Assembly: GCA_973895155.1 (NCBI GenBank)
Contig: OZ316897.1
Span: 19,106,168-19,170,167, forward strand
Length of the DNA: 64,000 bases
Source of the DNA: Marsupella aquatica
Lineage: Eukaryota > Plantae > Marchantiophyta
Reading direction: 5' to 3'
Of the stretch, positions 1-39,179 are shown one piece after another. The position numbers and the translations under genes were made by a program. Position 1 is the first letter of the stretch. Every line of letters begins with the position of its first letter. Below the pieces are notes generated by a model that was not told where the DNA came from, searched no databases, and saw nothing but the letters and a program-made list of their open reading frames with translations.

Positions 1-141
1 CGCAATCCCACTAAGCTAAGTGTCAGGGCCGCTCCTGGTCCTGATCCTAATCCTAAACTTGGAGATCAGCGCCCGCCCTGCCCACTCACGCCTCCTACCT
101 CCACGTCCACCCTTCCTAAAAGGAACGGCGCCCTTGCACCG

Positions 142-1870
142 TCACGACACCGGTGGTGGATCCTTAATGGACGCCCCCAACGCTTCCTCCTCAGCCACTG
201 TCGTAGGTTCGTTCTCTGACAGATTACCTGCCCTTGACTGAGTCAACTCTCCATCGGCCTGACTGGGTCTACCATCGGCATCGGCGTTGGCTCGGGAATC
301 ATTCTCGGCTACGGCCTCAGCCTCGGCTATGGTCTCCCCGGCCTGCTCAAGAGGCGGATCTGGGATACCAGCCTCATTATTGAGTAGTTCGGCTTGGGCC
401 GCGTCATCCCCACCTTTGGTGATAGCGGAATCTATTGCCGTGTTCATGCCGGAGGTTGGTGCTGAGTCTACCTCCTTGGTCACCACGGCCAGCGAAGTCG
501 TATTACTCTTTGACCCTGAAGGTTTCCGCTTCTTCTTCTTTTCTGGTTTGGCAGCTGGTCCCTTCCCCTTCCCACTTACTTCCGGCACTGGTGCAGGTGG
601 CGCGGCTTGTTCTTCGGCCAGTACCACTCCTGGTAACTTGGTTGCCCCAATTGGAGTTGGGCCTGATGAAGACAAGCACTTAAATACTGCGGCTTGTTTC
701 TTCAGCCGCTCTGTTTGGTTGTCGGCCCGCCGCTGTAGGTTCTCCATCTTCCTTGTGATTTCCTCCAACTCCTCCTACACCTCGTCCAGGTCCTTGCGCG
801 CCTCCTCTAGTTCCTTCTGGGCTTCCTCCCGTTCCCTGTGGGCTTCCTCCAGTTCTTTCTTCAAGGTAGCCCTCTCCGAGCCCGGGTTGCTCTTAGCTCC
901 TTGTCGAGCTCTGCAATGATGACAGACTCCATCTGGTTCATCTTGGCGTAAGTCTGATCGAGCATCTCGTCCTTCTCCCGTAGGTCGGCCTTGAAGCTGG
1001 CCGTCAGGGACGCAAGCTCCTGCTGCAGGGCCATAATCCCTTGATAGGATTTCCCTAACTCGGCCTCCTTCTGCTCAAGGGCTCCGCGGATTTTCTCGAG
1101 CTCCCCCTTCAACGCCCATTCCTTTCTTTGGGTCTCCGCCATGGCCCGGTTGTTGGCTGTTATGTGGGCCTCCTCTGCATTCCTCAGCTCTCGCTTCCAT
1201 TTCTCCCTGTCCTTGATTGCGTCGGCCAACTCTCCTTGGGTCCGCGTCAGTAGATTCTCGATCATCCGATTATCAGATTGTGCGGTATCCAACTGGCCCT
1301 ACATGATATTTAGCTCATGCCGCTTAATCCGCAGCTCATCTTGGGCTTTCTTGGCCACCCTCAGGTTCTTGATTTCGGCTTCCCTTTCCCTAAGCCGACG
1401 GATGACCTCGTCCTTCTTGCTTCTTTCCAAGGCCACCGCTTCTTCTAATTGGCGCTTCTCCAACATCTCCCTCTGGAAAAAGGGTCCCTGCTCCAACTCC
1501 TCCCCAAAGATGCTGAGCGTCAGTTCTCCACACATCTCCCCGTACTCCATGGCTCTGTCTTTAGCATAGGTGGAGGAAGTAGAAGTCATCGGCATCATCC
1601 ACCGCGGCCTCTACTCCCAAGCCGTCTTGCGGATCTCTTCAATCGTGGCTAGAGCTTTGCTTCCTTTTTTGGCTACCCGCCTGATGTCCTCCGGCCAATC
1701 TCCTCCTGGCAAATCCTTTTCCCTAGCCAGGGCTTCCTTCTCTTCCTGCCTGATTCGCTCCTGAAATTCTTGCGCCGTCTGTTTTATGGCGTCCTTTGGC
1801 TCGGATAGCAAAGGAATGAGTGGTAGATTTATAGATGGGACCTTAGGGAATAAGGTTTCTTTGGGAATAT
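142..1870 (-). pseudogene. Degraded coiled-coil / low-complexity ORF run of a probable retrotransposon accessory gene
   Basis: Successive minus-strand ORFs (1997-1611, 1598-1299, 1292-861, 768-142) of E/K/R/A-rich coiled-coil character, separated by stops or frameshifts. No recognisable enzymatic motif. Confidence 0.45.
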
Positions 1871-1920
1871 AGGGGTGGGGCGTCCTTTGGCCCAGATAGC
1901 AAAGGAATAGAAGAGCCATC

Positions 1921-2136
1921 ATGAATCCAGGAGAGAGAGTTATCCCTGATCTTCCCCTTCGTAATCCGTTTTTGATTAGAGTCCATCTTTTAGACAAACC
2001 ATCTATGAGGCAACATCTAACCTATCATTTTGGAGCTCAGTTTGCAACTGCTGTTATGGTTTCTAATGAGCCAATAATATACCCAGTGGTGTCGTACCGA
2101 GAGGAGTGGGAGTGCATCATCTTTGTCCTTTATTGA
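1921..2136 (+). CDS. LTR-borne small ORF A (71 aa), unknown function
   Basis: Open ATG-TGA frame. A diverged homolog at 24421-24627 keeps NPFLIR.H, RQH.T.HFG..FATAV and EPI.YP and the same stop position. Confidence 0.55.
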   Translation: MNPGERVIPDLPLRNPFLIRVHLLDKPSMRQHLTYHFGAQFATAVMVSNEPIIYPVVSYREEWECIIFVLY

Positions 2137-2140
2137 AGTC

Positions 2141-2347
2141 ATGGATCTGAATAGGAGTCCGAATGATATTCCTATTTCATTTTCTCTTGGAGATATTAGG
2201 ATCATATGTCGTAAGAAAACTAATTTTTGTGATGTGTTGGTCTGCAAGTATGGTGAAATAGGGTTTAACAGTATTTTAGTTTCACCTGAACCTTTCTTAA
2301 TACCCACTACCCTTGTTACTAGAATTATCATTTTGATTTTAGTGTAG
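2141..2347 (+). CDS. LTR-borne small ORF B (68 aa, starts MDLNRSP)
   Basis: ATG 4 nt after the ORF A stop. Homologs at 18996-19202 and 24629-24838 have conservative substitutions and the same stop position. Confidence 0.55.
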   Translation: MDLNRSPNDIPISFSLGDIRIICRKKTNFCDVLVCKYGEIGFNSILVSPEPFLIPTTLVTRIIILILV

Positions 2348-2419
2348 AACTTATAAGCATGCAAGGTTAACTTCAAAAGAGCCAACATGCTCTTGCCAGA
2401 AAACACGGTCACCCGGACA

Positions 2420-3990: not shown

Positions 3991-5942
3991 TTAACCGATT
4001 CGAGGTTAACAGTAACTTCGACACGACTCTCATGTGGACACAAGACGGGAATTATTCACCGGCAGGAAAAGACCTGGTTAACCAGAATAAAACATGCACA
4101 TCAGTATCCCTCAACACGAGGCTCGTGTAGAATTATTAACGCATACAGGTAGTGGAAGGAAACACAAGGAGGTTTGATGGCTAGGCGAGCCTTGTGTAGA
4201 GCATCAGCTTAGGTCTAAACATCTCCCAAAAGTAACAGAATTATCATAATCATATGCATTTATGACAAAAAGTCCCACAAGAAGTAAGGAAAGGACCCAC
4301 TATTATTCGATGCTTCACTCTAAGAGAGAAGGAAAGTCCAACAAGGTACAAATTCCAACAGGGTAAAAGGACCACCAGTGTACAAATTCCATTAGGTTAC
4401 AAATTCCAACAGGGTACAAATCCCCAATCCATGTAATATCACATTAAAGAACCACCCAACTGATAAATTGTGTTACAATTGAAGTCCAATTCCTCAAGAC
4501 CAAGACATAACCCATGTCAAGACCCTCAATCGTCCTCAATTAAGAAGAAATGAAGTCTAAAATTTCTAAAATTAGGGCAGTTAAGGAAGAAATGAAGTCT
4601 AATTCCTCTTCCCTGGGCCCTCACTCCATGTAAAAGAAGTGGACCCCCTGCAATCAGGCCCTTTTCATGTTTACCCCTTGTTATTTCCATTTTACCATTA
4701 AAAGTTCCCTTATTACTGGTAATAATTATAATTATTAGGTCAAAATGAAGAAAAACTCCCCTTCGAGCGTTCGCACGTCCTCCATGTATTAGTTAAGACT
4801 GAGGGCCCAGGGTTCCTCTTGAAATGCTAAATATCCTATTACACTACCCCTATTTAGTAGAACTTTTGAAAGAAATGAGGTACAGATAATTGTCCTAAAA
4901 AAACATTCTCCAAGAGTGATAGGAATGAGACAGTCACAAGAATGAGACAGTCACAGGAATGGAATTCCAGAAGGGACGTACCGATTGGGCGCCCAGAAGC
5001 AGTCCTTGGACTCAAACCCGTGCTAAAACCTGTCCTCTAAACCACTACAACATATTTTGCCCTTTTGCGAAGCTCATTTGAGTCCGGACACACATTTGCG
5101 ATTCCAGATGCTTCAAACCGTTGATGACTCAATACGCATCGCAATTTGTGATACTTGTGGTATCGCAACTTTGGTCTTCCATGCGATTTGCATCGCAAAC
5201 ATTTTGCGAACTTTATTGTATCACAATAGTTTGCGAAACTACAAAGATTACAAAACATATTACGAAGGCTCCGCGACCGCTCTGAAAGTCCGAAACCACA
5301 GTAACATTAATGATGCAAAACAATTAGTATTGGAGGATGTTTGCGAAAAGGTTAGCTTCAAACAATTTGCGATGAGTTTGTATGGCAAATGTGCGAAACG
5401 ATGTGGATGGTAAAGGTGGGATGGTCTGGATATCGCAAAATAGTGAAGCGTATAGTATGGAATAATTGAGAAACGGTTTAAATGGCAGAATTGCGATTTG
5501 GTTGGGATTTGTTTAGTTTCGCAAACAGTTCGCAAACGTTTATGTTAGACTTGTGTGTGCATCTAGGTTAGAGTTTGAATGGGGGAGGAGGAGGGAGGGA
5601 GGTGAAAGGTGAAAGAGGGAGGAAGGGAGTTGGAAGGTGGATGAGGGACGGAGGAAGAAGGGAGTCCAAAGAGGGTTTACTAAAAATAGGAGAGACTTTA
5701 GCGAAGAGGGAGGGAGGAGAAAAAGCTATGGAGTTTTTGGAAGAGGAAGGAGAGTTTGGGTTCAAAGAGGGAGGAGGGATAAGGGAGGGAGTACCCATGT
5801 CACTTATATGCATGACCTCTTTTGAAAGTAGGAGTCCAAAATGAAAATACCTACCACACTAATGGTGTATGAAATATTAATTAAGAAACAACATGAACAA
5901 TCCATGATATAGATTTTTGGTTTAAATATCCATAAGTGTCTC

Positions 5943-8900
5943 TCACACTTGGTCACCTTCAATGTCCTCTACATCTGACACAAAAATAGTGTCTGGCTTA
6001 TCTGAAACAATGGAACGAGACCGTGGCACATATGTGATGACAAGTGACCACTCTGGGTCTAAGGGGTATGGAACGTAGAAACATTGCTCCAAGTGAGATG
6101 GGAAAGTAAATGGCTCTGACGTTTGCCAATGATATGCTTGAAAACTAGTGGCACTTGTCCTCAACCGTGTAAACCCACTCTCATCTTGGAGTACAGTGCA
6201 ATTATTACCAACAAGGTTCACTTTGAACCACTTGCACTTGAAGACATACTCCTCAAACTTAGATTGGTTGTCATATGAGACCACCAAAATCTCCTCTATC
6301 TTCCCATAGTGTGGCACAACATCACGAACAATGTTCCTGTCATGTCGGCTACTCCGGGAGTCCTGACAAAACTGCCCTTGAACTCCACAATCAAAAGTAC
6401 AAGCCCTCTTCTCATCAAGGGAAGAAATCCTGAAATTAACAAGACCCATATATTGTTATACTACACAAAAAACACTAATCATGTTATGAGGAACCTTTCA
6501 TACCAAAAGAGAAAAACACACTTATCTTAAGTAAAATGATTACTATATCTTAAGTAGTAGTACATGAATATGGAAAATAAGGTTAGGAACTAGTGAAACC
6601 TGAAGTGTCTCCCTTGGGTCCACATGGCCGTCTTGGATGTTACCAAGTCTCTCAAAGGGCCATGAACAATGGTCCGAATGTCATTTGTCATAGTAGGAAA
6701 CTGTGAGACATCTCCTCCTTGTGCCAAAATGCCATCCAACTCAACCAACTTTTCCTTCATAAACTCATGCAACTTAGGAAAAATCCTTGCCCTTTGACTC
6801 ATTCTTTTGGCATTGTCATAAAACTCCCTCCATTCATCCATGACATTGCTATTACTCAACATGAATGTATTCAACTGTGTCCACTCTGTTGATGTAAGCA
6901 TGCGTGTTTTTGTTGCTCCTGTTAAACGGTCCTCCTCCTCTTGCCTCTCCTCCATCCAAGTACGTGGTAAAGTCCGATCAATGGTGGCCAAGATGTTACT
7001 ACAATAAAACATGCTCTCTGCAGCCAAGTATCCTGTAGCTATGCTTCCCTCCACTCGTGCACGGTTACGTACATAAGCCTTCAAGACTGACATGTAACGC
7101 TCAAGCCAGTACATCCATTGACAATGAACTGGACCAGCAATGGCAACCTCCCTCACAAGATGCACAAGTAAATGAACCTGATAATCAAAGAAGGAAAGAG
7201 GGAGGGCCTTCTCCAACTTGCAAACCACCTCAGCAGCCAATACCTCCATTCCAGGAATCTCTTCCACATATATCTCCTTTGAGCATATCCATCTCAACAA
7301 ACGACCCAATGACCAAATGGCATCTTGCACTTCTTTGGTCCCCAACCCTATAATTGCCACTGGCAATATATGCTGCAATAAGCGGTGATAGTCATGTGTC
7401 TTGAGATACCGTGGCCATTTGTGATTGTCCTCCATCCCAAAAGCTTTCCTCAAATTGGCACCATAGCCTGTAGGAAACCGCATCTCCCCTATACGATTCC
7501 GGAATTCACGTCTTTGGCCAACACTAAGCACCCCAAGGAGCAGAAGGACGATGTTCCAAACCTGTGGCAGGATCAACTTGTACCCATACATCTGGATGCA
7601 TTTCCAACTCTTCACATGCCTCCCTGAAGTTAGTGTCCTTCTCCTCATAAAAATGAGCTATCAACGCCTTCCCCACATTTCCCTCTATGTGCATGGGGTC
7701 TAAAAGATGGCGGATCTTCAACTCTGACCAATAGGGCAAACTGGCTAGTATACTCCACCTCGTCAACCCAGTACCATCAAAGGTGAGGGGATTATCAGGG
7801 TCTGCCACCCTATCAGCTAGTGACTTCCAATGCCCAAAAGTTGTTGGTTCCGGAATTTCCCGCATATCACCAAGGGGCATGTCAAAGGAGGAAAATAAAA
7901 GTGGGTCAGACCTCATCTCATGCCCCATCGGAAGAAACTTTGTATGCCCAATGTAAACAATCTTCCTAAGCCATGGGGACCAAATTGCCATATCTTGCAA
8001 TTGTGGACCACAGGTGGAGCAAGCTTTGTACCCCTGAGTTTGCAATCCAGAGACAAAGCCAAACCCTGGTTACACCAAAAATAAAACCAAACTAAATGTT
8101 AGGGTTGTCACATGACAAACAAGTATATTAAAGAGCATATCAAAGAAGGGTGGCATATGGTCAAAAAGTCATCTTACCAGGATAGTCATGCATTGTCCAA
8201 CAAACTACCCCTCTCAATTTAAATACACGTGGAATGTCTCCTGTATTTTTCCTGCCATCATATGCCCACACTCCACCCCACAGTTTTTGGAGTTCTCCAA
8301 TCAATAGTGCCAAATAAGTGTCAAAGTTCTTCACCTTTTTTGGACCTGGAATAATCAAAGACAGCAAGAGGAACCCCTTCTTCATGGATAGCCATGGTGG
8401 AAGGTTGTAATTCATCACAACCACAAGCCAAACTGATGTAGGTCTTCCCTTGCCTCCAAGGGCATGAGGACTAACCCCATCAGATGCCAATCCCAACCTC
8501 ACATGATGAGGATCATGTGCAAAGTCTGGCCATGTTTCCTCAATATGTTTGACTGCAGGAGAGTCAATTGGCAACCGCATAACACCAGGCTCTGATCGAT
8601 GAGTCTTATGCCATACCATCAACTCTGCCAAATCAGAACACCTGTACATGTGCAACAACCGAGGAATGATGGGAAACCAACGAACAGCTTTTCTTGGCAC
8701 CTTCTTTGTAATCATGTTGGGGTCATACCGTGGCTCATGACATTCAGTACACTGTGTCTTCTTCTCATCGGCCCCATGAAATAACATGCAATCATTCACA
8801 CATGCATGAATGATATGATATTTCATGCCAATTGATGAGAGAACACGCTTGGCCTCCTTCCAAGTTCCTGGCAACACATTGCCAAAAGGTAACATAAGGT

Positions 8901-14070: not shown

Positions 14071-17000
14071 TCCATTCTAGAGGATGCAGATGTAGTTCAC
14101 TCCATATGGCATATGGATTAGTCAAAGGACAGTGTCTTGGTATTTGATACCCCATAGGGTTTTAGAAAACCCTAATTTTTGTACATTCAGGGATTTTTGG
14201 CATATATAAAGTTTTGCTTTGGTATCTTCATGTGGAGCAATAAGACCCCAACCCAATTATGAACCCAAATATACAAAACCCAGCCCTCAAACTATCCTTG
14301 CGAAACACATGCGAACGCCATACTATCGCAAACTTGTCATACATTGAGTATTGGAACATTGCGATACTTTTGGTTCCGCAATTGTGCGACACCCTGATTG
14401 ACGCAGTTATGCGATACCATATGAATGGCAACGGAATTGTCAAGACAACAGCTTCGCAAATAAGTTATAGTTCAGAGCGTGTCGCAAACCGATAAAGAGT
14501 CTGTCGAGATCGCATAAATGTGATTTATGTGCGATAAAATAAGTTTTGTAGTGTGCGAAGGTGTTGCGAAGGGGTTGCGAAAGTCCGATTGCGAAGCTGT
14601 GGGTTTCAAAGAATGCGAAAGGGTTGCGATGCATAGCGTTTCGCAAACGCCGGAATTTCATAATTTGGTCCTTTGTTAGTTGCGATGGGACGGGGTTCGC
14701 AAAAGGGGTCGGTAGTGTTGTAGTGAACCACCCGTGCCAGAACTTATCCTCGGTGAGAGAATCAGGACGACTAATCGATAAATACCATTCCCAGATAGAA
14801 ATCCCAAATATAATGGACAAAAATGATAGGGTGATCACTCTGCTAGATCGTTGTGTGGTCCAATTTTCCGATATTTTGGCGGTGCAATTAATCATGTCAG
14901 ATAATGACAATAGATAATGACAAAAGAATAAGCACATCTGCTTGAATGTGACAGGCTGATAGCTTTGCATGATTGTCGTCTGGTAAGATTCGTCGATATT
15001 TTTGGCGGCGCTCTTAATGATGTCTTCACGCTTCACGCTGGCCCATTTTCACGCTTGCCCATTCCTCGTGTCAGTTATATATTTCAAGGAGATTCGCTCA
15101 TTCACTCATTCCTTCATCTTTGCCCTCTCGCTCATTCTTCGCCCTTTTGCTCATTCATCTCTCCCTTTGAGTTCTGCTCAATTACGTCCATATTTTGCAA
15201 ATTGTTTCACACGTGCGAAGAGGTTTCATGGCGAATCTATCTGAATCGGAGGTCCGAGAGATGTCGGTAATATGTGCCCCAACTTTAGAAGATGGTAGTC
15301 AAGCGGGCAAAGTCCATTTTGGTCGAATGAGTTGTTTTCTGGACGAATTGTCCATTTTTGTGAATAATAAAATCTCGGCATTTGTTTTGACATCTTGGAC
15401 TCTATTCTAAATCTTCCGTATTGGTTCTTTCCTAGGATTCCCGTATGTTTGTTTCAGCCACCCGCGCCTACCGCAGCCGCTAAGTCGAAGCACTGTTAGC
15501 CACCAAAATCCAATCGTCAATTCATGGTCTTTTGAAATGCGTATGGAGGGTGACGCTTGGAGGTGTTGGTTGTAGGGGATCGTTATTGCCAAGCCCAAAA
15601 GGTTTTGGAAGTACTTGGGTGTGCTTGCCGATTGTAGGATTTCAAAAGCACCAGAGCACCAGAAGGGGAAGGTCTTTCTGACAGTGACGGTGGAGGACCG
15701 TGTTAATTGTGGATATAGAGAGTTCTCTCTTGCCGTTGAACAATATTGTTGCGCACATTGTCTTGAGCCAAATGATGCGACAATGAACATAACGTCCTTA
15801 GGATTTTTTGATCCATCCACTCAACATTTCATGGATCCAGATAATGTTCTCACTACTGAGGATATTGTTTTAGGGCTGGGAAGGGTTAGTTTTTTGTTCT
15901 TCAAAGATTATCAATCTCACCTTTCTGCAACCAGGCATGTTGTTTACGTCATGTCTCTATCTTTACTGGAAGATGAACCCCGACAGGAGATCGAGATCGT
16001 TCTGGAAATTTCTTTCCCAGATCCTGTTGACGAGGAAAGGATTAAACGTTGGGTTGCAACCCATGCTGTAGTGAAGGCCTTCAATTTGAATCAGAAAAGG
16101 CACGGACGTCATGGTGGTGGCCCAAATCTCAAAGCAAGCAAAGTTGTACAGGAACCTGGATTGTCGTCGAGTTCAGATTCAGGATCATCAAGTTCATAGG
16201 GTACATCAGATGAACCAAGCATTGTTCCTAGTGACTCTTTTAGTCCTGAGTTGGTTGGAACAGAGGAGATCTTTGAAGATGAGATCCAAGTCGTGGATGA
16301 AGAACTCGTGGAAGTGGGAGGTTCAGAGGCTGAAGAGGAAAAGGACTCTAAGACTGAGATGGAGGTGTAGAAGAAAAAGAAAAGAAAGCGAATGGAAGAA
16401 GACGCTCCTTCCAAGAAGAAGAGATTGTCTTCAAAGATTGCTCTTCCAGAGAAGGTTGGGAAAGCTAATGTCCCTCAGGAAAAAATCCGCACTAGCTCTA
16501 CTGAGGTGAAAGGGCCACAGATTGCAAAGTCCAAACAACCACAGAAGAAGATTAAAGCGGCCGAAATACCATAACAGAAGAAGGCTATCAGGAAGAAGGC
16601 AAGCAGGCAGTTGTGGAAGATATAGCAAAACCCATATCAAAAGGTGTCGTTAAGAAGGATTTATCTTGTAAGGCTTCTATTGCAACACCTTCCGCTGTCG
16701 TGAAACAAAAGGTGCCCTCAAAATCTCAAAAGGTCAATACTCAAGTGCAAGACGTATCCACAGACCATGGGGTGACAAGATCGGAGAAGTCCAAACGTGG
16801 AAGGGGCCGCAAAAGAGACACTGAGGGAATGGAAGAGGCACCGGAAACCGATGTCCCAATCCTGAAGAAACAACGTAAGAAAGTGGAGATGATTGAGATG
16901 GATATCGTGGATGACATGGGAGAGATGAATGTTGACTCGAGTTCTAAAGTAATCGTTGATCAAGCCAGACTTGAGAGGGAAGAAAAGACTTTGCAGCAAA

Positions 17001-18349
17001 ACCATTGCTGGTATTCTTTTGGGCTGTATATCTATCCTCCGCCGGCAAAAATGAATGAGCGGTTACTCAACGAAGACCATGTCAACCATCTTGTTCAGTT
17101 GATGATTTTAAATGTCGGTCAGGAACCTTTGCCTGCAGATCTGGTGCCTTACAAGATGATTAATGGTGTTTACAGTCTTATCGATCTTTCCGTCAGAGAT
17201 TTTGATTCTAAACAATTATCTGAGTATCAATATTGTGCAATAAGTGGTCAACACTCGACTATGGCCACGAGGAAAATCATTTGGAGTTCTCGGACACAGC
17301 CATCTCTGGTTAAAACTGCCAACCTCCTAAAATTCCGTCGTGCAAGAATTCTCAAGGGGTCGACACCTGTTAAGGTGTTGGTTGAGATTTCACATGCAAA
17401 CAACTTGCAAGCTGAAGCACATCGTTTCTCGTCACCATTCATCGACCAGGTCAAGCATGCGAGAATGCAATATTCGGAAATGAATCAACCAGTGCGGCCA
17501 GTGCCGTCAGGGCAAAAATCCCAGGAATTCCAGGTCCGTTCTTGTTGACACCATAATTTCTTTTGTGGTCCACACAAGCCTCGTGTAGAATCCGAGGCTT
17601 GGATCTAAGATAACTTCTCCAAAGGTTTGGTTTACTGTGTTGTTCTTACCGTTTGTTGTTGGGTTTCAGGATTACGAAGGGTTGGCCAAAGTCACACTGA
17701 AAGTGAGTAGCATCAGCGAATACAACTGGATCCTTTTCATATTGGAGAGCCTCTATAAGTTGTGGATGTCGGTCTGCAATAGTTAGTTGTCTGGTAGTTT
17801 ACCTGACACCAATGGAGAGATGACTGGGAAGAAGAGGGAAGCAAAGCAGCTTACTGGGACGACATTCAGGGTATTTGAGAGGGTGCAAGAATCTGACATT
17901 ACCTCTATCTTGAATAAAGTTCAACCGGAAGAGGTTCTCTTGATGAAGAGAAGACATGCAAGGACAAATATACCTTCAATGTCCGATCTTGCCATGAAAG
18001 CCAAGTATACTGAAAAGCTGAAAGGTGCAATCTTGCGGTTCTACCGCGAGACCTATGAAAGTGTTTTCAATGTTGGGGCCGTTTGGTCGGACGTGGGCCG
18101 CGAGTTTAATTTCATGAATGAAGAATTGGATCAATGTTGCTCAATGGTCGACAATGCTTATTTCAAGAGTTTAGTCAAGGTCTCTACAAAATCCGATATG
18201 CCGGAACCTTTGAAGAATAGGTTACGGTGTCGTGATTTTCTCTTAAGTTATAAAAAATTGTTTGTTTTAATATGCTATAAATTATAAAGTAATTTAGTAG
18301 TTAGATTATTAAATTTAGACTTTATTCAACTTCTTTAGCTATATTAACG

Positions 18350-18545
18350 GACTATAGTAGTTCCACCAATGCATATGAGTAGTTCCACCAACTACAATAA
18401 TATTCACCAACGCACAGTAGGTCCACCAGCGCATAGTAGGTCCACCAATGCACAGTAGGTCCACCAACGCATAGTAGTTCCACCAACGCATAGTAGTTCC
18501 ACCAACGCATGGTAGTTCCACCTACTAAAAGTAGTTTCACCAACT
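18350..18545. repeat. ~20-bp tandem repeat (TAGTAGTTCCACCAACGCA) in the LTR U3 region
   Basis: About 9 degenerate copies visible. Confidence 0.9.
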
Positions 18546-18995
18546 ATGAACAGTACTAGCACACTCTTAGGTATTAGATGTTTGACACTTGGCCTTCATC
18601 CAAGTGCTTGGGCTTGATCCATGCCCTCTTGGTGTGCACTATAAATAAAATGGTGAGGGGCACTCTCCCCTCATTCCGCAGTGTTTATCATTCAAGGTTG
18701 TGAAGCTCTTTTGTGCCTTGAACATAGTAGTGGGGCATCCTTTGGCCCGGATAGCAAAGGAATAGGAGAGCCATCATGAAATCAGGAGAGAGAGTTATCC
18801 TTGATCTTCCCCTTCGTAATCCGTTTTTGATTAGAGTCCATCTTTTAGACAAACCATCTATGAGATAACATCTAACCTATCATTTTGGAGCTCAGTTTGC
18901 AACTGCTGTTATGGTTTCTAACGAGCCAATAATATACCCAGTGATGTCGTACCGAGAGGAGTGGGAGTGCATCATCTTTATCCTTTATTGAAGTC

Positions 18996-19202
18996 ATGGA
19001 TCTGAATAGGAGTCCGAATGATATTCCTGTTTCATTTTCTCTTGGAGATATTAGGATCATATGTCGTAAGAAATCTAATTTTTGTGATGTGTTGGTCCGC
19101 AAGTATGGTGAAGTAGGGTTTAACAGTATTTTAGTTTCACTTGAACCTTTCTTAATACCCACTACCTTTGTTACTAGAATTATCATTTTGATTTTAGTGT
19201 AG
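18996..19202 (+). CDS. LTR-borne small ORF B copy (ORF A in this copy has a premature TAA)
   Basis: MDLNRSPNDIPVSF... is open. The upstream ORF A (ATG at 18776) has AGG CAA changed to AGA TAA. Confidence 0.5.
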   Translation: MDLNRSPNDIPVSFSLGDIRIICRKKSNFCDVLVRKYGEVGFNSILVSLEPFLIPTTFVTRIIILILV

Positions 19203-20426
19203 AACTTATAAGCATGCAAGGTTAACTTCAAAAGAGCCAACATGCTCTTGCCAGAAAACACGGTCACCCGGACAACGGAATATTTACCAAAAAAAATTTG
19301 AGGAAACTGTCCGTGAGAGAATGGATCCATATTGAATATTTTACTCTGGGAATCTTCTTGCTTCCGCGGAGCCTCCTTTTGATTTGACGAGTTGTAGGGA
19401 GAGGATTAATGTGTCACTTGCTATTGTCGATATGACACACTCAATTCAAAATACCTGGACACAATCGGAGCTGCTGAATTTCTTGAAGACTGTTGTGAAT
19501 GTGCCCGCCAACGACTTGGTGACTGTCGTGTTTTTTGTGCACCCAGGTCTCTTGCTGGCCAGAATTATTGAAGCTGTCACTGATCTACCTTCCAGTTATA
19601 ATGCTCATCTGGAGTATGGAAGCTATTGGAAGAGTGCGAAAGAAGTCCGCTCATCGCATTTCATGTCGGGTATTATTGAGTCCATTGTTTTCCTTGGAGT
19701 CTCCCAGGAACAAGAACCGGATTGGGAAAAACATTCAAGAGGGTTTCAAGGTCATTTCTTGGCAAAATCCATGGATCAGCTTGAACTGGCAAGACCAGCC
19801 AAAGAAGATTATGCTGGCCTTTCCAAGGAAGAGGTTGCAGCAAAGCAAAAATCCGCTCTTGGAGATCGCTTGTATAGACTCATTCCTTTCCGGAACCCCG
19901 GTGGCAGAACATTTACATCAAACATTAAGCCCAGCAGAATTATCAAGGCAATCATTCTTTGATTTTCCGAAAAGGAGGAAATTATGTTGGACTTCTTTAC
20001 TGGTGGGCAAGTTTTAAAGAATGCCCTACTTCTGGAAAGGGAATGTTTCTCGTTTTGTTCGGAAAGGGGGGATGTGATGGACCTCACGGCTTATGCGGAG
20101 AATGTCAAGTCGTTGGAGGGTGTCGCACAATTTGTGAAATCCTTATGGAAACTTCCACGAGGGGAGGGCAGCTCAACGCAAAACTCTAATGCAAGTGGCG
20201 CAAAGGAAGGGAGGCACTATCATGTCACTGGAACAGTCTCCCATCAAGACGATAACAGATTTTCTGATCCTTGTGTTGGAATGATTAATGTTGGGGAACA
20301 GATTTGCCGTCCATGGGAATTGGGTGAGGCGCAAAGACCGATCCACCACTTAGGGAGTTTCGAAGGACCTCTTGTGGAGGAAGAACACAATGACGATCTC
20401 GGGGGTTAACTTAGTGTATATTTTGG

Positions 20427-20655
20427 GGCACCACGTGCGATCCTAACCTAATATAAACACACCTCTTTTATTATGGGAATATTCTAAAAATATTCTCTAT
20501 TTTTAATACAAATGACCTATTTTACTTTATAAAAGGTATATATTAGAGAATATTCTACAAATATAGGTTTATAATCCCTTCTTTTGCTTTCTATGCTTTT
20601 TAAAAATTTAGCTAATTTATATGAAAAATACCTATTTTGGATCGCACGTGGTTCC
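20427..20655. mobile_element. MITE (Tourist/PIF-Harbinger-like)
   Basis: 17-bp inverted ends GGCACCACGTGCGATCC / GGATCGCACGTGGTTCC with one mismatch, a very AT-rich interior, and TAA on the right flank. The left boundary/TSD is not clean. Confidence 0.7.
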
Positions 20656-20921
20656 TAAGATTGTTGATAGTCAACCCCCCAAGATGATGATGGGATACCT
20701 CTATCTCTACGCGAGCCTCGTGTGGGGTCGTTTGGCGAGGTGGACTCAATTATAAATGATATTGCACCGGTTGTGTCTGAGGATCCTTCCGATTACCTTC
20801 GGGTTATCACTGGAGTTCAAGAGGCCGTTAACATCGTCAATCCATCCCTCCCCATACTTGGGCAGAAAATCAGGGTCCATGCGAGGTCGAGCCCGTCATC
20901 GAACATGTCAATAATGTTGTC

Positions 20922-21679
20922 GTGGAACTTGCAGTGGAGCCTGCGAATGAGGCAGGTGCCAATTCACTCTTTCCCACTTCTCTCAACCTGAACGATGATG
21001 TGGCGATAGACTTTTGCCTCAACCCTGACATGGATCTTAACATGGATCAGGATTTAGTTTTGTCAACAATCAGTGGATGCGTCATAACTTGTCGCGAGAT
21101 GGCATGTCTAGGTCCTGAGCGATGGATAACTTCTAAAATTATGAATGCTTATTTTGGTTTGATTGCTTCAAGAGCAGAATCCGCGGGTACCGACCTCCCG
21201 CAGGTTCATATTTTTGATACTTGGTTCTATTCGGAACTTGCTCGAGGTGGATACAAGTATGACGATGTTCAAACTTGGACCTCAAAGTTGGAGTACTTTT
21301 AACTGATGTAGAGATGGTCATGGTCCCTATTCATAAGGGACATAACCATTGGGCACTGGTCATCATCGACATGGGTCTTAGGAAATTGGACTATTTGGAT
21401 TCTTTGCACGGAGATAACCCTGAAGTTCTTGAGAACCTAGCAAGATATCTAGATGATGAAGCCATGTTCAGAACTCATAAGGAACTGAATGCTTTGTCAT
21501 GGCCAAGAAACTGTTGTAAAGACATCCCTCTTCAAACCAATGACTACAACTGTGGAGTGTTTGTCATGAAATTTGTCGATTACCGGAGTAGGGAGAAGCC
21601 TATTTATTTCAAAGCCGAGGACATGGATGTTGAAAGGAGGAATATTCTTCTAAGCCTTTATCGTCACCATTTGAGTTAG
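20922..21679 (+). pseudogene. Ulp1/SENP-family (peptidase C48) protease domain
   Basis: WITSKIMNAY, HIFDTWFY, VPIH..HNHWAL, YLDSL and LQTNDYNCGVF retain the His-Asp-Gln-Cys catalytic residues. One frameshift near 21295. Confidence 0.9.
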
Positions 21680-21790
21680 ATCTCCGTGATTCTCGTGTGG
21701 AATAGGTTATCGTCAGACTTCCATACGCTGCAATGCATCGTAATTGATGTTACGCTCTTGCATTGACTTTATGATATTGATGTTCATTTA

Positions 21791-22857
21791 TTGTTTGGTC
21801 ACTCTATAGATATTGTAACATACGATATGGCAACTATTATACAAAACATCATTCCTCGTAAACTGCTCATACTTGACATGAATGTCGTCTTACATATTGT
21901 GCAAATATCGGGAGTGCGAGCAAAGTCTCTTAGGGATATAAATACTGAAAACGGGGAGACATTGTTTCTAAATAATAGAATCATCTATGTAAGACCGGGA
22001 ATGCGGCACTTCGTTGAATGGTGTCTTCAGACATTTGATGTGGGGATATGGGCCTCTGCCGTATATCGTAATGTGCATGAGATTTTGGAGAAAGTGTTTC
22101 CCAACGAGAAGCATCAATTTGTCTTTGTGAGAACTGAAGCGGAAGCCTTGTCGACTAGGATATTTTATGGGGCTGGAAGAAACAAAGGGAAAAATTGCTT
22201 TGTGAAATTACTGAAAAATATTTGGGATGACCTCGTTTTATATGGAGATCGGACAAGTGCACCTTATAATGACAGCAACACCATCCTTCTTGATGATTTA
22301 CCTCATAGAAGTTTCTTTAACCCCGAATACTCGACGTTGTTTTGTGATTGCTTCAACGGCAATAATAATGGTTTCCTTGCAGATACGTTTATAAGCAACA
22401 AACTTCTGAAACCAGTGTTGCAGGAGTTGGCCTTGGCAAGAGATGTGCGTGTGTATTGTGGCGAAACACTCCAAAATGGTCCAGTCTGAATTTAGCTGAA
22501 GACCGAAAACAGTATCAATAGATATACACTCAACTGCAGGGGTTTGGGGAATCTAATTCGCTTTTTGCGTCGTGGCCAGTGTGCAAATATGATGTTCTCC
22601 AACTGACAACTTCAAAACTTACACCTCGGCACATAGAGATCATATTGTGGATGTCTCGTAAGGAAAACTTCACTGAGCATGAAACTAATCAATGTACAAA
22701 AGTCCTAGGAGCTGCGCATGGGCTATTCGCCACAAATTTTAGGGAGTTTGTGAAAGTAGTCAGCGAAGTTCACAGACAAACGTCAAAATTCTGTAGAATA
22801 AACACAGGAGTAAAGAGTAGGCAGGACTTAGTACTTCAGATTATGGATAGAATTTAG
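21791..22857 (+). pseudogene. NIF/FCP1-homology (HAD-like) domain protein (copy 1)
   Basis: KLLILDMN, YVRPG...F...C...FDVGIW, K.L..IWD and NTILLDD.P...F.NP. A premature TGA at 22487 precedes a C-terminal extension. Confidence 0.8.
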
Positions 22858-23532
22858 TGAATATGTTTCATATAGATTAGAATTAGCCCCATTTGGAGGG
22901 AGGGGTGAAGGGCAATGCGCAACCCTGGAATCATTCCTTTTGGTTTGGCCCAATAGCAGAGGAGAGGAGAAGAGAGTCGTTTTGGCTTGAAGGCGGACAC
23001 AATTGGACTATGGCGGAATGCAGAGGGGAGAGGGGAGGCTTTGGCAGGGGTTTTGGAAGATGGACAGAGTTTAGGGAGGAGAAATAGGTGTCTGTGACAA
23101 AGCTATCCTTCATTTGTTAGTTCACAAATATTCTTGATATGATTAGTGTAGCTGTCTAGTCAAATATGTGTAGTTGTCTAGTCAACTTTGTAGTCACTTT
23201 AGCGGAAGACGATGTTGTTAGCGAAAAACCCAACAATTATGAAGTCCCATGAAGGGATATCAAAATATATGTACGGCACCACCGTTAGTGCCCCATTTAT
23301 TATAAAGAGTAATTTCAGTCATTCATTTTAAGGAGTACTTTTTTCATTGCCTTTGAATTCGTAATTCATCCAATGCACTAGATTTTGGAAATTTAAAAGT
23401 ATGCTTTTGGAAACTTCAATTTTGGGTTTTGGAAATTTCAGATCATGTTTTTGGATTTTTGAAATGAATGTTTTGGAAATTTCATTCTTCAACTTTGGAC
23501 AAAAGAATCTCCAAAGTTAGTGAAATGTTAGA

Positions 23533-23765
23533 TCAGTGTGCATGCTGCAGTGTACGATCTACAGTGTGCATGCTACAGTGTACGGTCTACAGAGTGCATG
23601 CTACAATACATGGTAGACCTACAGTATCCATGCTACAGTGTACGATCTACAGTGTGCATGTTAAATTGCAAAACTTATAGTATGCATGCTACAGTGTATG
23701 ATCTACAATATGCATGCTATAGTGTACGATCTATAGTGTACATGCTACAGTGTACTGCCTACAGT
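23533..23765. repeat. ~28-bp tandem repeat (CAGTGTGCATGCTACAGTGTACGATCTA)
   Basis: About 8 degenerate copies upstream of the TATA-like box. Confidence 0.9.
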
Positions 23766-24420
23766 TGCTCCACTCACTAACTATAGTACTAGCACACTTA
23801 CTTGCCTTGGATGTGTGACACATGGCTTCCATCCGTGTGCCATGCTTGATCCGTGTGCTTGAGGTGTGAGCACTATAAATAAAGAGGAGAGGGGCTGTCT
23901 CCTCTCACTCTCCATTTTTCATCAACTAAGTTGTGAAGCCTTAAGAATCCATTGGACTTGATGATTCTTCTATGAATATAACCCTTATGAAGTAGACCCA
24001 CTCATGCACTCTTGCTTAGAGCTTTGACTCGGCCAGAGATATTTTGTATAAGTTGGACCTTCAAAAAGTGTTATCATTTGATAGGAGATGGTTATTAAGT
24101 TCTAAAAAGTTGCAAAGTGCTCAACAATGCCTTGACATCATATGCTCTTTTTGGGTAAAATCCTTATGAAGTAGACCCACGCATGTACACTGGCCTGGAG
24201 TTTAACTCAGTCAGTGGTAATTTGTATGCGTTGGACCTTCAGATAGTATTTTTATTCAAAAGAAGATAAACCTATTAAGATAAACATCTGCATGTATATA
24301 TTCTTAAAGTTAACTCAATGTATAGTATTTGTTTAAAATGAATGATCTTTTTTGGTGAGTGATTATATATCTTGTCATTAGAATGAATATTAGTTGGATG
24401 GAATATTTGATAGTACGATA

Positions 24421-24838
24421 ATGCCCAGACTAGTATCTGTTCTTTCTCTCCCTAATCCTTTCCTTATTAGAATTCATGTACTCCAAAAAAAGATAATACG
24501 TCAGCATATGACTTTTCACTTTGGAGAAGCATTTGCAACTGCGGTGTTAAATTTAATAGAGCCAATTGTATACCCTTATGTAGTTTATGGTCAGGATTGG
24601 GCTTACACAATTTTTATCTTGTATTGAGATGGATCTCAACAAACCTCCCTCCGATGAACCTCCCGTTTCTTTCTTGTTGGGAGATATTTGTTTTGTAACT
24701 CGATCCAAGGTAGCTGCCAAGGAGGCAATAGTCCGTAGGTATGGAGAAAAGGGTTATGATGTTGTGCTTTCATCCACAGAACCATTCCTTGTGGTGTCTG
24801 CTACCCAATCTAGAATAGTAATCATGATCTTAACTTAA
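24421..24838 (+). CDS. Diverged small ORF A (24421-24627) and ORF B (24629-24838, MDLNKPP...) pair
   Basis: Both frames are open and align at the protein level with 1921-2347. Confidence 0.55.
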
Positions 24839-24905
24839 GTTCTCTCTTGACACTAGCAGCCATAGGCCTAGTGCTTCCTCAAGAACCACATTTTTTCCCC
24901 AGACA

Positions 24906-26737
24906 ACGTTAATGTGGATCCACCAGAATATATTGAAGAAGATTTTGAGGATGACAAAGAGGAAGAGGAGGGGGAAGCACCTCAAAATTTGGATGTAGAG
25001 AGCGAAGGAGGGGCAGAGGCCTTACGAAACCTGAGTGAGTAGGCCAAGCAATGTCGCAAGAGCCTCAAGAGGAAACGGAGGGCAGTAACCCTCTCGCAGG
25101 AAGGTGAAGATGAAGATGAAGATGAAGAAAAAGAAGAAGAAGAAGAAGAAGGGAGGAATGCCACCTTCCAACAACCCACGCTGTCCAAACTTTTGGATAC
25201 CACCAATCTGGTAGAATTGAGGACTTCTGCCCAATGTCTGGCGTTCATAGGAAAGCCAATCCCCAACGCCAGGGATCTACGTTACTAGTTGAGGGATTTG
25301 AAGGAGAACAAGGCAATGGCAAGGATAGCAGTCATGGAATCTGAGGGCAAGACTTGGGACATGGAGAAGCTGAGGATAGCAAGAGAGAAGGTTGAGCGAC
25401 TCCTTATAAAGGTACATAAGAAGCCCAAATCTAACAAGCTCATATTGAAACAGCTAGAGGACTTAGAGGGATTGCTAGACAAGGCAAGGGAGAAAATGAG
25501 GAAGCAACCACAGCCTTGCAGCAGGCCCGAGAGGCGGTCCGGACAGAGAAGGTTGGGACACAGGCCCTAAAGGTCGAGTTAGGAAAAGCCCAGAAGGAGA
25601 GAAAGAAGCTGCAGGAGCTACTGGCTGACAAGGAGGAAGAATGGAGCCACCTCTTGTCGACCGCCGAAGAGGAGTTAAAGGAGGTAACCACCCAGCATGT
25701 GAACTGCGGTTCTGTATCCCAGTAGAAGGCCGATGAGCTGCAAAGCTAGGGTAATTGAAGAGTTGGAGCATAGAGTAGGAGAAGGAGAACAATTGGCACT
25801 TTGGCTGTCCGACCAGTTGGTTGCGCATGGGAAAATGGTGGAAGAGCTCGCAGAGAAAGAGGCATCAACCAGATTAGGAGCTTTGGAGTGGGAGGAGAAG
25901 CTCCAAGAAGTATTTAAGAGAGCCAATCGTGAGCTACAAGGAAAATTAGAGGAGAAGCATACATACATTGTTGGGTTAGAAGAAAAAGGGGAAAGAAGAG
26001 AGAAGGAGAGGAAGAGATGGCTACAAGAGGTAGCAAGTAAGGAGCTCGTCCAACAATGCAGTAAGGTGGTCCGGATTCCGACAAACACCTACAAGGCCTA
26101 GGACTTGGAAGTGTAGGGCATGCAAAATAAGTTTTTGAAGGATGCACTAGCAGATCCGGTGCACAAGAGGAGGCTGGAACAGCTCAAGAAGGTGAGTGTA
26201 AACTCGTGGAAACTATTCACAAGGCAGAAGTTAGATAGCATCCCAAAATGCTATTGAAGATGAAGCTAGGGGGTTGGAAACTCTCCGTGTTATTTTGGCC
26301 ACAGCGGGGATTAACAAGAGGGTCATTCGTCCGGACAATTGCGATCGGATATGGTATGACATCCCGGTCCGGATCAAATTTATGCTTCCATTCTTTGAAT
26401 GGTTGGGAGCCATTGGGTTCACCCAATCCACAGACTTATATTTTAGATTGGGAGGAAGGGCCAACAACAGAGTAACACAAATCTTGCTATCCAAACTAGA
26501 GCGAGAGCACGCTGGCCATCCATTCCTCATTATGTGGCTCTCATGGCAAATGCAAACACTACGCATCCCAACTGTCCGGCATGGAAACTCCATTGGTTCT
26601 ATAGTTTAGCAGTACATAGGAAAGCCTTTGATTTAGTAGAAGTAGTGATGAAGTCCTGGGCGGCAAGAGAAATCCACACCAACTGTAGGCAGTATACCTT
26701 GCCCCGCCTGGTTACTTTTCTCCAAACGGCCGGATGA
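24906..26737 (+). pseudogene. Degraded acidic / coiled-coil ORF of a probable retroelement accessory gene
   Basis: Long E/K-rich reading broken by many TAG stops and frameshifts. No recognised domain. Confidence 0.4.
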
Positions 26738-29199: not shown

Positions 29200-30383
29200 A
29201 AATTTACAATGTCCTTCTTCTATCTAAGGGGCTTAACGTGAGTCAAATCTCTAAACAAAGTGCTCCTTACAATGTGTATTTGAGCACGTGCCCCTGTCTC
29301 CTTTACTATCTACCCTAGTGTCACGGTTGCAAGTCCCTTTATCTTTAGGGAGCTAAAACTTGGTGGTGTTGTTCCTAATGGCTATAATCTCCCGCAAAAA
29401 GTGTCTGGGATTTTCTCTATGTGGACCTGAATAGTCCCTTCCTACAAATGCTTTAGCAAGTGACGTGACAAGTGCATCATCAAGTTCTGTCTCAGGACGT
29501 AAACTACATATATGATGCTTCACGTTCCAAGGAATCTCATTGCTATTGAGGTCCAACACACTATGCGTAAACTGTGACTTCCAAATTTTTGTTGCACAAC
29601 TCTTACTAAGTTGATCATAAGTAATTTTATTTTTTACCTTGTCTCTCTTTATGTGCAATAGAGACCACAGTGGAGAGTTAAGAAGAAGATAACATCTAAT
29701 GTCACTTGCATGGGATAGTTTCTCAAGACAAGGCCAAAGAATTGTTAGAAGAAAATTATCTCCACCATTGGCATGCGTGTGGGGCACTGGAAATAGTCCG
29801 GTCATGCTTGGGTTGGCAAATGCCTTAAGGGGGGAGTCATCCACAAGGAGGGTGTTGGTTTCATCATATAGATTTCCAAATCCACTCCATACCACCCAAA
29901 AATCCTTCAGTAGCACATTTGCCTTTCCGTTTGTAATGTCACGCCTTTGAATGCCTGTGTCAAAGGCTTCCACCTATGTGCATACAAACTTAAGTTTCAA
30001 CTGCTCCTCAGCAGTGAACATCATGTTCAGCATTTTCACTGTTTGATGTACCCCAGCACATGTCCAAATTGCAATGTCAAATCAGTCAAAAACCAACTTT
30101 AGAAACTCATGGAGCCCTGGCCTTTCTGTGTACATGCGACTAATTCCATTTTTCTATCCCAATGCACTCCACTTGGGGTCACAACATTTCTGGATTTGCC
30201 CTTGCTTTGGAATTCAACTGAATCCCAAAGTATTTTGTTAAGATCCAAAATCAACAATTTGCGCTTGATGGAACAAGGTCTTGGTTCTGCAAGTGCAACA
30301 AATACCAATCTTAGAGAAAAAACCACATTTGAAGTTTGGATATAGATCATCTCTGTCAACCCAACACAAGTGGCCAACCACAA
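29200..30383 (-). pseudogene. NIF/FCP1-homology domain protein (copy 2)
   Basis: KLLILDLNKIL, LKDFWVVW and YDETNTLLVDDSPLKAFANP. Frameshifts and stops. Same position downstream of the MTase gene as in copy 1. Confidence 0.8.
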
Positions 30384-32946: not shown

Positions 32947-33081
32947 TGTTATACCCTAACTAGGATTAGATATCTTAACCCGAGTTAAGATCTAACCAAG
33001 ATCTAACTCAACTACCTCATGTATATATATTGGACACATGAATAAGATTCATTACATTGTTGGAGCATATGGTTTGTAACA
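32947..33081 (+). repeat. 5' LTR
   Basis: TGTTATACCC...TGTAACA, identical to 39180-39314. Confidence 0.98.
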
Positions 33082-33095
33082 CGTTATCAGCACGA
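33082..33095 (+). promoter_or_regulatory. Primer-binding site (half-tRNA type, complementary to the tRNA-Ile anticodon arm)
   Basis: CGTTATCAGCACGA directly after the LTR, with no TGG start. Confidence 0.7.
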
Positions 33096-38812: not shown

Positions 38813-39179
38813 CTACTTACTATGAAGAAGCAAACCATCAATACTACCACAAAGGAGATCAAGACATTCTCAAGAACATCAATAACTCACATACACTACA
38901 ATGAAGACAATGGAGACAACAACCCCTATGGAGCTTAACAACATAGAAAACACAATTAAACCAGTATTGTACTCTAGATCTTACATACATACAAAATAGA
39001 TCATACAAAAGAGATGGAAGGTGACAATACTCTTTCCTTCCATGATGTTAGTAGGGAAGGTTTTAATGAGGTTGCACCTCCATCATCTCACAATATAACA
39101 TAGGTAGAAGATATCTAACTGATAGCAACTTAGATTGGTTGTTATAATTTCATCAAAAACTATAACACCCAAGGGGGAG

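What the first reader, a model, noticed from the sequence alone, without database searches (positions are those of the whole stretch)
1921..2347. Conserved pair of ~70-aa microproteins in the 3' end of an LTR; ORF B starts with an EAR-type DLNxxP motif
Seen: three copies (1921-2347, 18776-19202, 24421-24838). The third is highly diverged in DNA yet keeps both frames, both stop positions and mostly conservative substitutions. ORF B starts 1-4 nt after the ORF A stop (TGA-AGTC-ATG; TGA-G-ATG). A and B resemble each other (HFGAQFATAVMVSNEPII vs KYGEIGFNSILVSPEPFL, both with hydrophobic C-termini). B begins MDLNRSP / MDLNKPP. In the solo LTR the pair sits downstream of the TATA box and about 70 bp before the terminal CA. 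Established: LTRs are normally non-coding, and DLNxxP is a plant EAR repression motif that recruits TOPLESS-type corepressors. Inference: a bicistronic, duplication-derived microprotein module that even solo LTRs could express.
Basis: partly seen in the sequence, partly recalled or inferred. Interest (0 to 1): 0.72.

Follow-up and report, generated by a model that had tools for sequence, protein, structure and literature searches.

The report
LTR-encoded microproteins with plant repressor motif
The end segment of a jumping-gene family, a part that is normally non-coding, carries two tiny related genes under selection, and one keeps a short tag that likely binds the plant's main gene-silencing partner TOPLESS, which would give the element its own handle on host repression.

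Summary
The ORF pair is real. A (68-71 aa) and B (68-69 aa) occur in three copies, 67-72 bp before a shared GACA end. Copy 2 is a 1,047-bp solo-LTR-type insertion (TGTC...GACA, ACGG duplicated). All three right junctions are GACA|NCGN, matching the moss Gypsy lineage Phygy; membership is untested because no pol region is present. Copies 1 and 3 are 56% identical in DNA, yet keep 59 of 118 residues (null 33, p=5e-5) with third-position bias; the sense frame beats all five others. A and B are paralogues (HHalign 94.7%). B belongs to a diverse unnamed family: 42 representatives, median domain identity 29% in a 38-sequence alignment. There, D-L-N and one lysine are the only columns conserved at 90% or more; DLNx(x)P is present in 29 of 42. 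The motif sits on a low-confidence tail, with a variable spacer, ahead of a confidently predicted domain that has no Pfam or fold match. Best reading (0.45): an LTR-transcribed accessory module whose B protein recruits TOPLESS to regulate the element family in trans. Expression, TOPLESS binding, A-B pairing and the host's identity are not shown.

The parts
18228..19274 (+). Copy 2: complete solo-LTR-type unit, 1,047 bp, TGTC...GACA, flanked by ACGG on both sides, inside a coding region of another repeat
   Evidence: empty-site joint 18225-19278 in one contig of run X1, net 1,051 bp = unit + 4
18354..18544 (+). 19-bp tandem array (9.9 copies) upstream of the promoter (U3-like, inferred)
18508..18710 (+). 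Promoter-like block with TATAAATAAA at 18640 followed by a hairpin; shared with copy 3 (73.6% over 174 bp)
18776..18991 (+). ORF A, copy 2 (71 codons; in-frame stop at codon 31)
18996..19202 (+). ORF B, copy 2 (68 aa, begins MDLNRSP)
1865..2419 (+). Copy 1: 3' 555 bp of the unit, 96.4% identical to copy 2, ends GACA|CCGG, lies in a minus-strand coding region of another repeat
1921..2136 (+). ORF A, copy 1 (71 aa, intact)
2141..2347 (+). ORF B, copy 1 (68 aa, intact; DLNxxP at residues 2-7)
23089..24905 (+). Copy 3: diverged subfamily, ends GACA|ACGT. 5' end unresolved: 23089 (TGTCTGTGA after a purine-rich tract, i.e. possibly a 3' LTR) or 23216 (TGT after ATGT, a possibly decayed duplication)
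   Evidence: contig depth rises only from the bin starting at 23511
23534..23755 (+). 28-bp tandem array (7.8 copies) upstream of the promoter of copy 3
23741..23942 (+). Promoter-like block of copy 3, TATAAATAAA at 23874 plus hairpin
24421..24627 (+). ORF A, copy 3 (68 aa, intact, 54% identical to copy 1 A)
24629..24838 (+). ORF B, copy 3 (69 aa, intact, begins MDLNKPP, 44% identical to copy 1 B)

Best explanation
A and B are two paralogous small genes under purifying selection at the 3' end of an LTR-type unit, and B likely uses its N-terminal DLNxxP tag to recruit the TOPLESS corepressor, so that the pair would regulate transcription of the element family in trans. Shown: the ORFs, the selection, the paralogy, the conserved motif, the position behind a TATA box, the TGTC...GACA ends and the NCGN duplication. 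Inferred: the carrier is a Phygy-like Ty3/gypsy LTR. The LTR promoter makes an RNA in which A comes first and B follows by re-initiation or leaky scanning across the 1-4 nt gap, so any LTR, solo ones included, could express the pair. Predicted: each protein folds into a small strand-helix-hairpin domain, and B's tag lies on a flexible tail outside it. Untested: the conserved basic residues at the start of the helix bind nucleic acid or a chromatin protein at the LTR; A, which lacks the tag, partners or competes with B; the net effect is a feedback brake through TOPLESS and histone deacetylase.
For: Selection: (sense pN/pS 0.43 for A and 0.52 for B with saturated synonymous sites; other five frames 0.54-2.29 and 0.67-1.25, each with a stop in at least one copy). 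Family: 7 B and 3 A close homologues; 49 hits among 50%-identity representatives, 42 kept. Motif: DLN 36 of 42 (35 at the N-terminus), DLNx(x)P 29 of 42, DLNxxP 26 of 42; among 35 that score 35 bits or more on the domain alone, DLN 29 and DLNx(x)P 22. In a 38-sequence alignment only D2, L3, N4 and K26 reach 90%, at a median domain identity of 29%. Linear-motif behaviour: DLN-to-K26 spacer 20-28 residues, 62 in P0061, motif doubled in P0026; pLDDT 58 for residues 1-10 against 88-95 for the rest. Pair conserved: A and B homologues lie on contigs of the same four lengths; 10 of 21 N-terminally extended B records resemble the off-frame reading of A's 3' end at p<0.05; two records are A-B fusions and one has two domains in tandem. 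Paralogy. Carrier; Phygy is the only lineage listed with 4-bp NCGN sites in PMC6317226. [quoted passage not shown]
Against: 13 of 42 representatives lack DLNx(x)P; the proline is less conserved than DLN. The hits came from a profile that contains the motif, so the counts are biased upwards; the domain-only control only partly removes this. Known DLNx(x)P motifs are mostly C-terminal: only 5 of 65 lie elsewhere (PMC9956375). The leader of copy 3 is about 520 nt with 16 ATGs, and 4-5 ATGs (A's own start included) precede B's start, which fits simple scanning poorly unless the RNA is spliced or starts elsewhere. No DNA-binding domain was recognised. The host is not identified; that it is a land plant is inferred from its element content. 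The second MTase/NIF cassette and the rest of the window hold no further A/B copy, and no full-length element was seen.
Confidence: 0.45

Rival explanations
1. B binds TOPLESS but acts as a decoy: it would compete with host DLNxxP repressors, as the fungal effector Jsi1 is proposed to, and so lift repression of the LTR or of stress pathways that favour transposition.
For: Same motif evidence as the main reading. The protein is tiny and has no recognised DNA-binding domain. Jsi1 precedent in PMC8126959. Many contigs lie on the unit in two runs, so many templates may exist.
Against: A pure decoy needs little beyond the tag, yet a 55-residue domain with K26, G38 and other conserved positions is kept, and A keeps the domain without the tag.
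Confidence: 0.2
2. The pair acts in the retrotransposition cycle: B would tether the integration complex or particle to TOPLESS-bound chromatin, or A and B are particle or integrase cofactors and DLN is not a TPL tag.
For: Position next to the LTR end and the sequence-biased NCGN target. Integrase tethering by short motifs is known for yeast Ty5 and Ty1 (recalled, no call).
Against: Targeting motifs are usually part of integrase itself (recalled). The three insertions here lie in or beside coding regions of other repeats, not at recognisable host genes.
Confidence: 0.15
3. The ORFs are translated but act in cis, as conserved-peptide upstream ORFs that tune translation of gag-pol from the 5' LTR transcript.
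For: They would lie in the leader of the genomic RNA (inferred from position); tight stop-start spacing.
Against: A confidently predicted folded domain, tandem and fused forms and a motif on a variable spacer suit a protein with partners better.
Confidence: 0.1
4. The unit is not an LTR but a non-autonomous Ginger-like DNA transposon, or a carrier of a captured host gene pair.
For: TGTNR end and CCGG/ACGG targets are also Ginger1 traits (PMC2836005). No PBS, pol or paired LTRs were seen.
Against: No terminal inverted arms of 10 nt or more join the two ends of copy 2, whereas Ginger1 has 40-270 bp. The ACGT junction of copy 3 is outside the Ginger1 set but inside NCGN. No homologue carries a host-gene name.
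Confidence: 0.08
5. The frames are non-coding and stay open by chance, by RNA structure or through an antisense gene.
For: One antisense frame is open across B in copy 1.
Against: That frame has a stop in copy 3 and a higher pN/pS; permutation p=5e-5; no unusual RNA folding at the two A/B junctions tested (z 0.59, 0.14); no Rfam match.
Confidence: 0.02

Closest known systems
Phygy lineage of non-chromovirus Ty3/gypsy LTR retrotransposons (PMC6317226, passages and supplementary file 3)
   Same: TG...CA ends and a 4-bp NCGN target duplication, which that survey lists for Phygy alone (100% of 186 elements).
   Different: No extra ORF is listed for Phygy, but the survey counted only ORFs of 250 codons or more, so 70-codon ORFs would be missed. 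RT/INT and PBS could not be examined here.
Extra ORFs (eORF/aORF) of Athila, Ogre, Retand and SIRE elements (PMC6317226, passages)
   Same: Accessory coding capacity beyond gag-pol in a plant LTR element, function unknown.
   Different: Those are 250 codons or longer, lie up- or downstream of the polyprotein and are often antisense. A and B are about 70 aa, in sense, paired, inside the terminal unit, and match no Pfam family.
DLNxxP EAR proteins and EAR-mimic effectors such as Ustilago Jsi1 (PMC8126959, PMC9956375, passages)
   Same: Same motif consensus; a parasite using a host corepressor tag.
   Different: Encoded by an endogenous mobile element; motif at the very N-terminus of a 68-aa protein; no recognised DNA-binding domain; binding untested.
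VANC anti-silencing proteins of VANDAL DNA transposons (PMC5735166, PMC10398659; search listing only)
   Same: Element-encoded protein proposed to regulate its own family in trans through chromatin.
   Different: VANCs oppose silencing and belong to DNA transposons; no sequence or Pfam link to A or B was found.
Retroviral genes in or overlapping the LTR (MMTV sag, HIV nef, HTLV-1 hbz); recalled, no call
   Same: Protein coding within a long terminal repeat.
   Different: Those lie in U3 or antisense in animal retroviruses; here two sense ORFs lie downstream of the TATA box in a plant-type element.
Ginger1 and GingerRoot DNA transposons (PMC2836005 passages; PMC6839031 parts 2-3 of 7)
   Same: Gypsy-like ends; Ginger1 targets CCGG/CCGT/ACGG.
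   Different: Both have long terminal inverted repeats, absent here; GingerRoot makes 6-bp duplications.

Membership tests
Solo LTR of a Phygy-type Ty3/gypsy element | TG...CA termini with only a short inverted repeat | tested here: met
   Copy 2 TGTC...GACA; no long terminal arms
Solo LTR of a Phygy-type Ty3/gypsy element | 4-bp target duplication of pattern NCGN | tested here: met
   ACGG on both sides of copy 2; right junctions CCGG, ACGG, ACGT in 3 of 3 copies; empty-site joint with a short side of 23 letters
Solo LTR of a Phygy-type Ty3/gypsy element | Occurs as paired direct repeats around gag-pol in full-length copies | tested here: inconclusive
   No such element in the window; no genome held; collection scans found no relative
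Solo LTR of a Phygy-type Ty3/gypsy element | RT/RH/INT phylogeny in the Phygy clade; tRNA-Trp PBS | not testable with these tools
   No internal region available
DLNxxP-type EAR protein | DLNx(x)P consensus, conserved across homologues | tested here: met
   3 of 3 window copies; 29 of 42 representatives; D2 L3 N4 at 90% or more
DLNxxP-type EAR protein | Motif-dependent binding to TPL/TPR | not testable with these tools
DLNxxP-type EAR protein | Transcriptional repression in planta | not testable with these tools
   Needs a reporter assay
DLNxxP-type EAR protein | DNA-binding or adaptor domain that places the motif on chromatin | tested here: inconclusive
   Folded domain predicted; no family or fold assigned
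Plant LTR-retrotransposon eORF (as defined in PMC6317226) | 250 codons or more, up- or downstream of the polyprotein | tested here: not met
   68-71 codons, inside the terminal unit
Ginger1 DNA transposon | CCGG/CCGT/ACGG 4-bp duplication and TGTNR end | tested here: met
   2 of 3 right junctions fit; copy 2 starts TGTCG
Ginger1 DNA transposon | 40-270 bp terminal inverted repeats | tested here: not met
   None of 25 inverted pairs in 18200-19300 joins the two ends
GingerRoot | 6-bp duplication and 100-150 bp terminal inverted repeats | tested here: not met
   4-bp duplication, no such repeats

The most novel reading that the evidence does not exclude
A retrotransposon lineage encodes, inside its LTR, a previously undescribed microprotein family of unassigned fold that mimics the host EAR tag to hijack TOPLESS. 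Because the genes ride in the LTR, every solo LTR is a potential source, and the repeat fraction of the genome becomes a dispersed, dosage-sensing regulator of its own family and perhaps of host TOPLESS targets.
Probability: 0.35. Interest if true: 0.88.

Novelty: new variant of a known kind. Interest (0 to 1): 0.72.

Why it matters
Plant LTRs and solo LTRs are treated as non-coding, and surveys of extra ORFs use length cut-offs (250 codons in PMC6317226) that hide genes of this size. The function of accessory ORFs in plant retrotransposons is a long-standing open question; here one comes with a specific handle that can be tested directly, a conserved DLNxxP tag. If B binds TOPLESS it would extend EAR mimicry from pathogens to an endogenous mobile element. 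My literature searches listed no such case (open-access library only). It would also add a small protein family with no assigned fold.

Tried and rejected
No genome is held for this window. Metagenome scan with the B alignment: 93 pattern matches, 1 locus (L001), a 19-residue chance match in a 280-aa bacterial-type ORF, rejected. Viral contigs with B: 0 of 66. Prokaryote genomes with A: 0 of 44. Promoter pattern in viral contigs: 8 loci, none with A or B by HMM. Longer or fused forms of A: 0 of 3,164 candidates. Pfam: 0 families for the four intact window proteins; 2 weak families on 3 of 38 B members (Bestrophin_2, TAFH), treated as noise. NCBIfam: 0 of 10 proteins. PDB by sequence: one hit at E=0.81. 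Fold searches: no Foldseek hit at E<=0.001 in PDB or BFVD; best VIA Z 3.1 for B (rmsd 3.9, 50 aligned) and 2.9 for A (rmsd 3.5, 62 aligned); this shows neither a match nor a new fold. ESM Atlas: one hit at 0.75 for B, none for P0032. A-B complex prediction: no answer (score 0.01, alignments not used). Sequencing runs: no RNA holder listed. What follows the LTR end in other copies (PBS, PPT) stays open. Rfam: 0 in 18000-25500. RNA folding of 7 segments: z from -1.98 to 0.68. Seven long multi-stretch hits (P0027, P0052, P0056, P0057, P0064, P0065, P0068) were dropped as spurious before counting. GingerRoot, Ginger1 and the P. patens chromovirus RLG1 (PMC7466625, passages) were considered as carrier and rejected or disfavoured. 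PMC13547354 (Arabidopsis atlas of TE products) has 0 occurrences of EAR, TOPLESS or microprotein (term search only). Earlier-findings look-ups by sequence, place and EAR words were empty.

Full report
Observation. ORF A is 71 aa in copy 1 (1921-2136) and 68 aa in copy 3 (24421-24627). ORF B is 68 aa in copies 1 and 2 and 69 aa in copy 3. B starts 4 nt or 1 nt after A's stop and ends 72, 72 and 67 bp before a terminal GACA. Copies 1 and 2 differ at 20 of 555 positions, 17 of them transitions, and A of copy 2 has an in-frame stop at codon 31, as expected of decay after insertion.

Selection. With a protein-guided alignment of copy 1 against copy 3, the sense frame has pN/pS 0.43 (A) and 0.52 (B), synonymous sites near saturation (pS 0.70, 0.76) and no stops. 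The other five frames give 0.54-2.29 (A) and 0.67-1.25 (B), each with a stop in at least one copy. To avoid alignment bias I repeated the test on an ungapped DNA diagonal anchored at the stops: 34 of 60 (A) and 25 of 58 (B) residues are identical against null means of 19.4 and 13.8 (p=5e-5 each), at 56% DNA identity. The tail after B does not align between subfamilies. The constraint is on the proteins.

The carrier. Copy 2 runs 18228-19274 (1,047 bp), begins TGTC, ends GACA and has ACGG on both sides. One contig of run X1 joins 18225 to 19278, a net loss of 1,051 bp, i.e. the unit plus four bases; its short side is only 23 letters, and a second joint is one base off. From 5' to 3' the unit holds an AT-rich stretch, a tandem array, a TATA box with a hairpin, a leader, A, B and a short tail. 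Copy 3 has the same order and a promoter block 73.6% identical over 174 bp. Summed contig depth over the units is several times that of their flanks in runs X1 and X2 (X1: 46,000-54,000 against 5,500-7,900 for copy 2); the tool warns this is no copy number. All three right junctions are GACA|NCGN. In PMC6317226 (passages and supplementary file 3) Phygy, a moss non-chromovirus Gypsy lineage, is the only lineage listed with an NCGN 4-bp site; PMC6911290 (passages) also gives 4 bp as its commonest size. Ginger1 DNA transposons share CCGG/ACGG targets but have 40-270 bp inverted repeats (PMC2836005, passages), which copy 2 lacks. So a Phygy-like solo LTR is the best call, but no pol, PBS or paired LTR was seen. 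The 5' end of copy 3 is open: 23089 after a purine-rich tract, or 23216. The host is not identified; a bryophyte is an inference from the target pattern.

The proteins. Close searches gave 7 B homologues (52-69%) and 3 A homologues (77-79%), all unnamed. A profile search of 1.84 billion representatives gave 49 hits; I dropped 7 long multi-stretch proteins and kept 42. Of these, 36 contain DLN (one, P0054, not at the N-terminus), 29 DLNx(x)P and 26 DLNxxP. Because the profile contained the motif, I rescored with the domain alone: of 35 at 35 bits or more, 29 have DLN and 22 DLNx(x)P; some bias remains. In a 38-sequence alignment only D2, L3, N4 and K26 reach 90%, while the median pairwise identity of the domain is 29% over 703 pairs. 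The spacer from DLN to K26 is 20-28 residues, and 62 in P0061; P0026 has the motif twice. AlphaFold2 gives B a confident model (mean pLDDT 86.6; strands 12-16 and 19-24, helix 26-47, strands 52-58 and 61-67) with the first ten residues at 58. A gives a weaker model of the same outline (68.2). Profile comparison makes A and B homologous (94.7%, E=6e-8; 66% with the shallow alignment). A lacks the tag. Many database B records have extra N-terminal residues; 10 of 21 resemble the off-frame reading of the window's A 3' end at p<0.05 (one row is not a true case and several are near-duplicates), so A-like sequence precedes B beyond this window. P0070 and P0037 are A-B fusions and P0032 has two domains in one chain without DLN. 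No Pfam family was assigned to the window proteins.

How it most likely works. Shown: two paralogous, selected ORFs behind a TATA box at the end of an LTR-type unit, and a DLNxxP tag on B that behaves like a linear motif. [quoted passage not shown] Inferred: the LTR promoter transcribes A and B; B is made by re-initiation or leaky scanning; B recruits TOPLESS; the shared domain, with K26 in 95% and R30 in 76% of 42 rows, places it on LTR chromatin or on a partner; A modulates it. I put 0.45 on this trans-acting brake, 0.2 on a TOPLESS decoy, 0.15 on a role in particles or integration targeting, 0.1 on cis-acting uORFs, 0.08 on a non-LTR carrier or captured host genes, and 0.02 on non-coding. 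Against the main reading: 13 of 42 lack the full motif; DLNx(x)P is C-terminal in all but 5 of 65 known cases (PMC9956375, passages); the leader of copy 3 has 16 ATGs.

Comparison and novelty. It works like an accessory gene of a retroelement and, if the tag is functional, like an EAR-mimic effector. It fails the published eORF definition (250 codons or more) and the Ginger and GingerRoot definitions. Five literature searches listed no transposon-encoded EAR protein and no ORF pair in a plant LTR (titles and abstract starts only, open-access library; supplements of bioRxiv preprints were not visible). Two unchecked earlier notes of this scan describe single conserved ORFs in moss solo-LTR-like units in other genomes, one with a 5-bp duplication; they are leads that LTR-borne genes may recur in mosses, and are not support for this case.

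Verdict. A real, selected, undescribed microprotein pair in an LTR-type unit, with a strongly conserved EAR-type tag whose function is untested. New variant of a known kind; interest 0.72.

Noticed in passing
window 15576-22489 (+) and 29353-32914 (-): Two diverged copies of a multi-gene repeat cassette. The first has Ulp1 protease (PF02902) and NIF phosphatase (PF03031) hits and an MTase-like ORF; the second has N6/N4 DNA methylase (PF01555, E=2e-6) and a weak NIF hit. No transposase or RT was recognised; it is covered along its length in runs X1 and X2. An upstream ORF looks ParB-like (recalled resemblance, no Pfam hit). Element class unknown; copy 3 may be its 3' LTR.
   Followed up: partly
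window 1788-1817 and 1879-1908: A 30-bp quasi-palindromic motif in the leader just before ORF A is repeated (28 of 30) 90 bp upstream, inside the minus-strand coding region that hosts copy 1. It may be a repair duplication or shared ancestry; an LTR transcript would be antisense to that host ORF.
   Followed up: partly
window 1-149 (-): A second element starts TGTCGTGA after CCGG and runs off the left edge: the same first eight bases as copy 2 and again an NCGN site.
   Followed up: no
window 45703-46518 (-) and 57906-58736 (-): CACTA-type elements (Transposase_21, DUF4216, DUF4218) lie next to ORFs with a SET domain and with NSD-like PHD fingers; three such CACTA regions are in the window.
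   Followed up: no
window 32947-39319: A young Copia element with short (about 142-bp) LTRs that are 98.6% identical and two long ORFs.
   Followed up: no
window about 20395-20700: An AT-rich insert of about 300 bp with very high contig depth; contigs of X1 and X2 skip 294-309 bp here, suggesting a MITE-like insertion.
   Followed up: no
proteins P0032, P0072 (Logan contigs up to 8,410 bp): A two-domain tandem form of the A/B domain without the DLN tag, seen on 7 and 4 contigs; a good target for a structure.
   Followed up: partly
window 62021-64000: 408-bp tandem satellite, 4.9 copies, running off the right edge.
   Followed up: no
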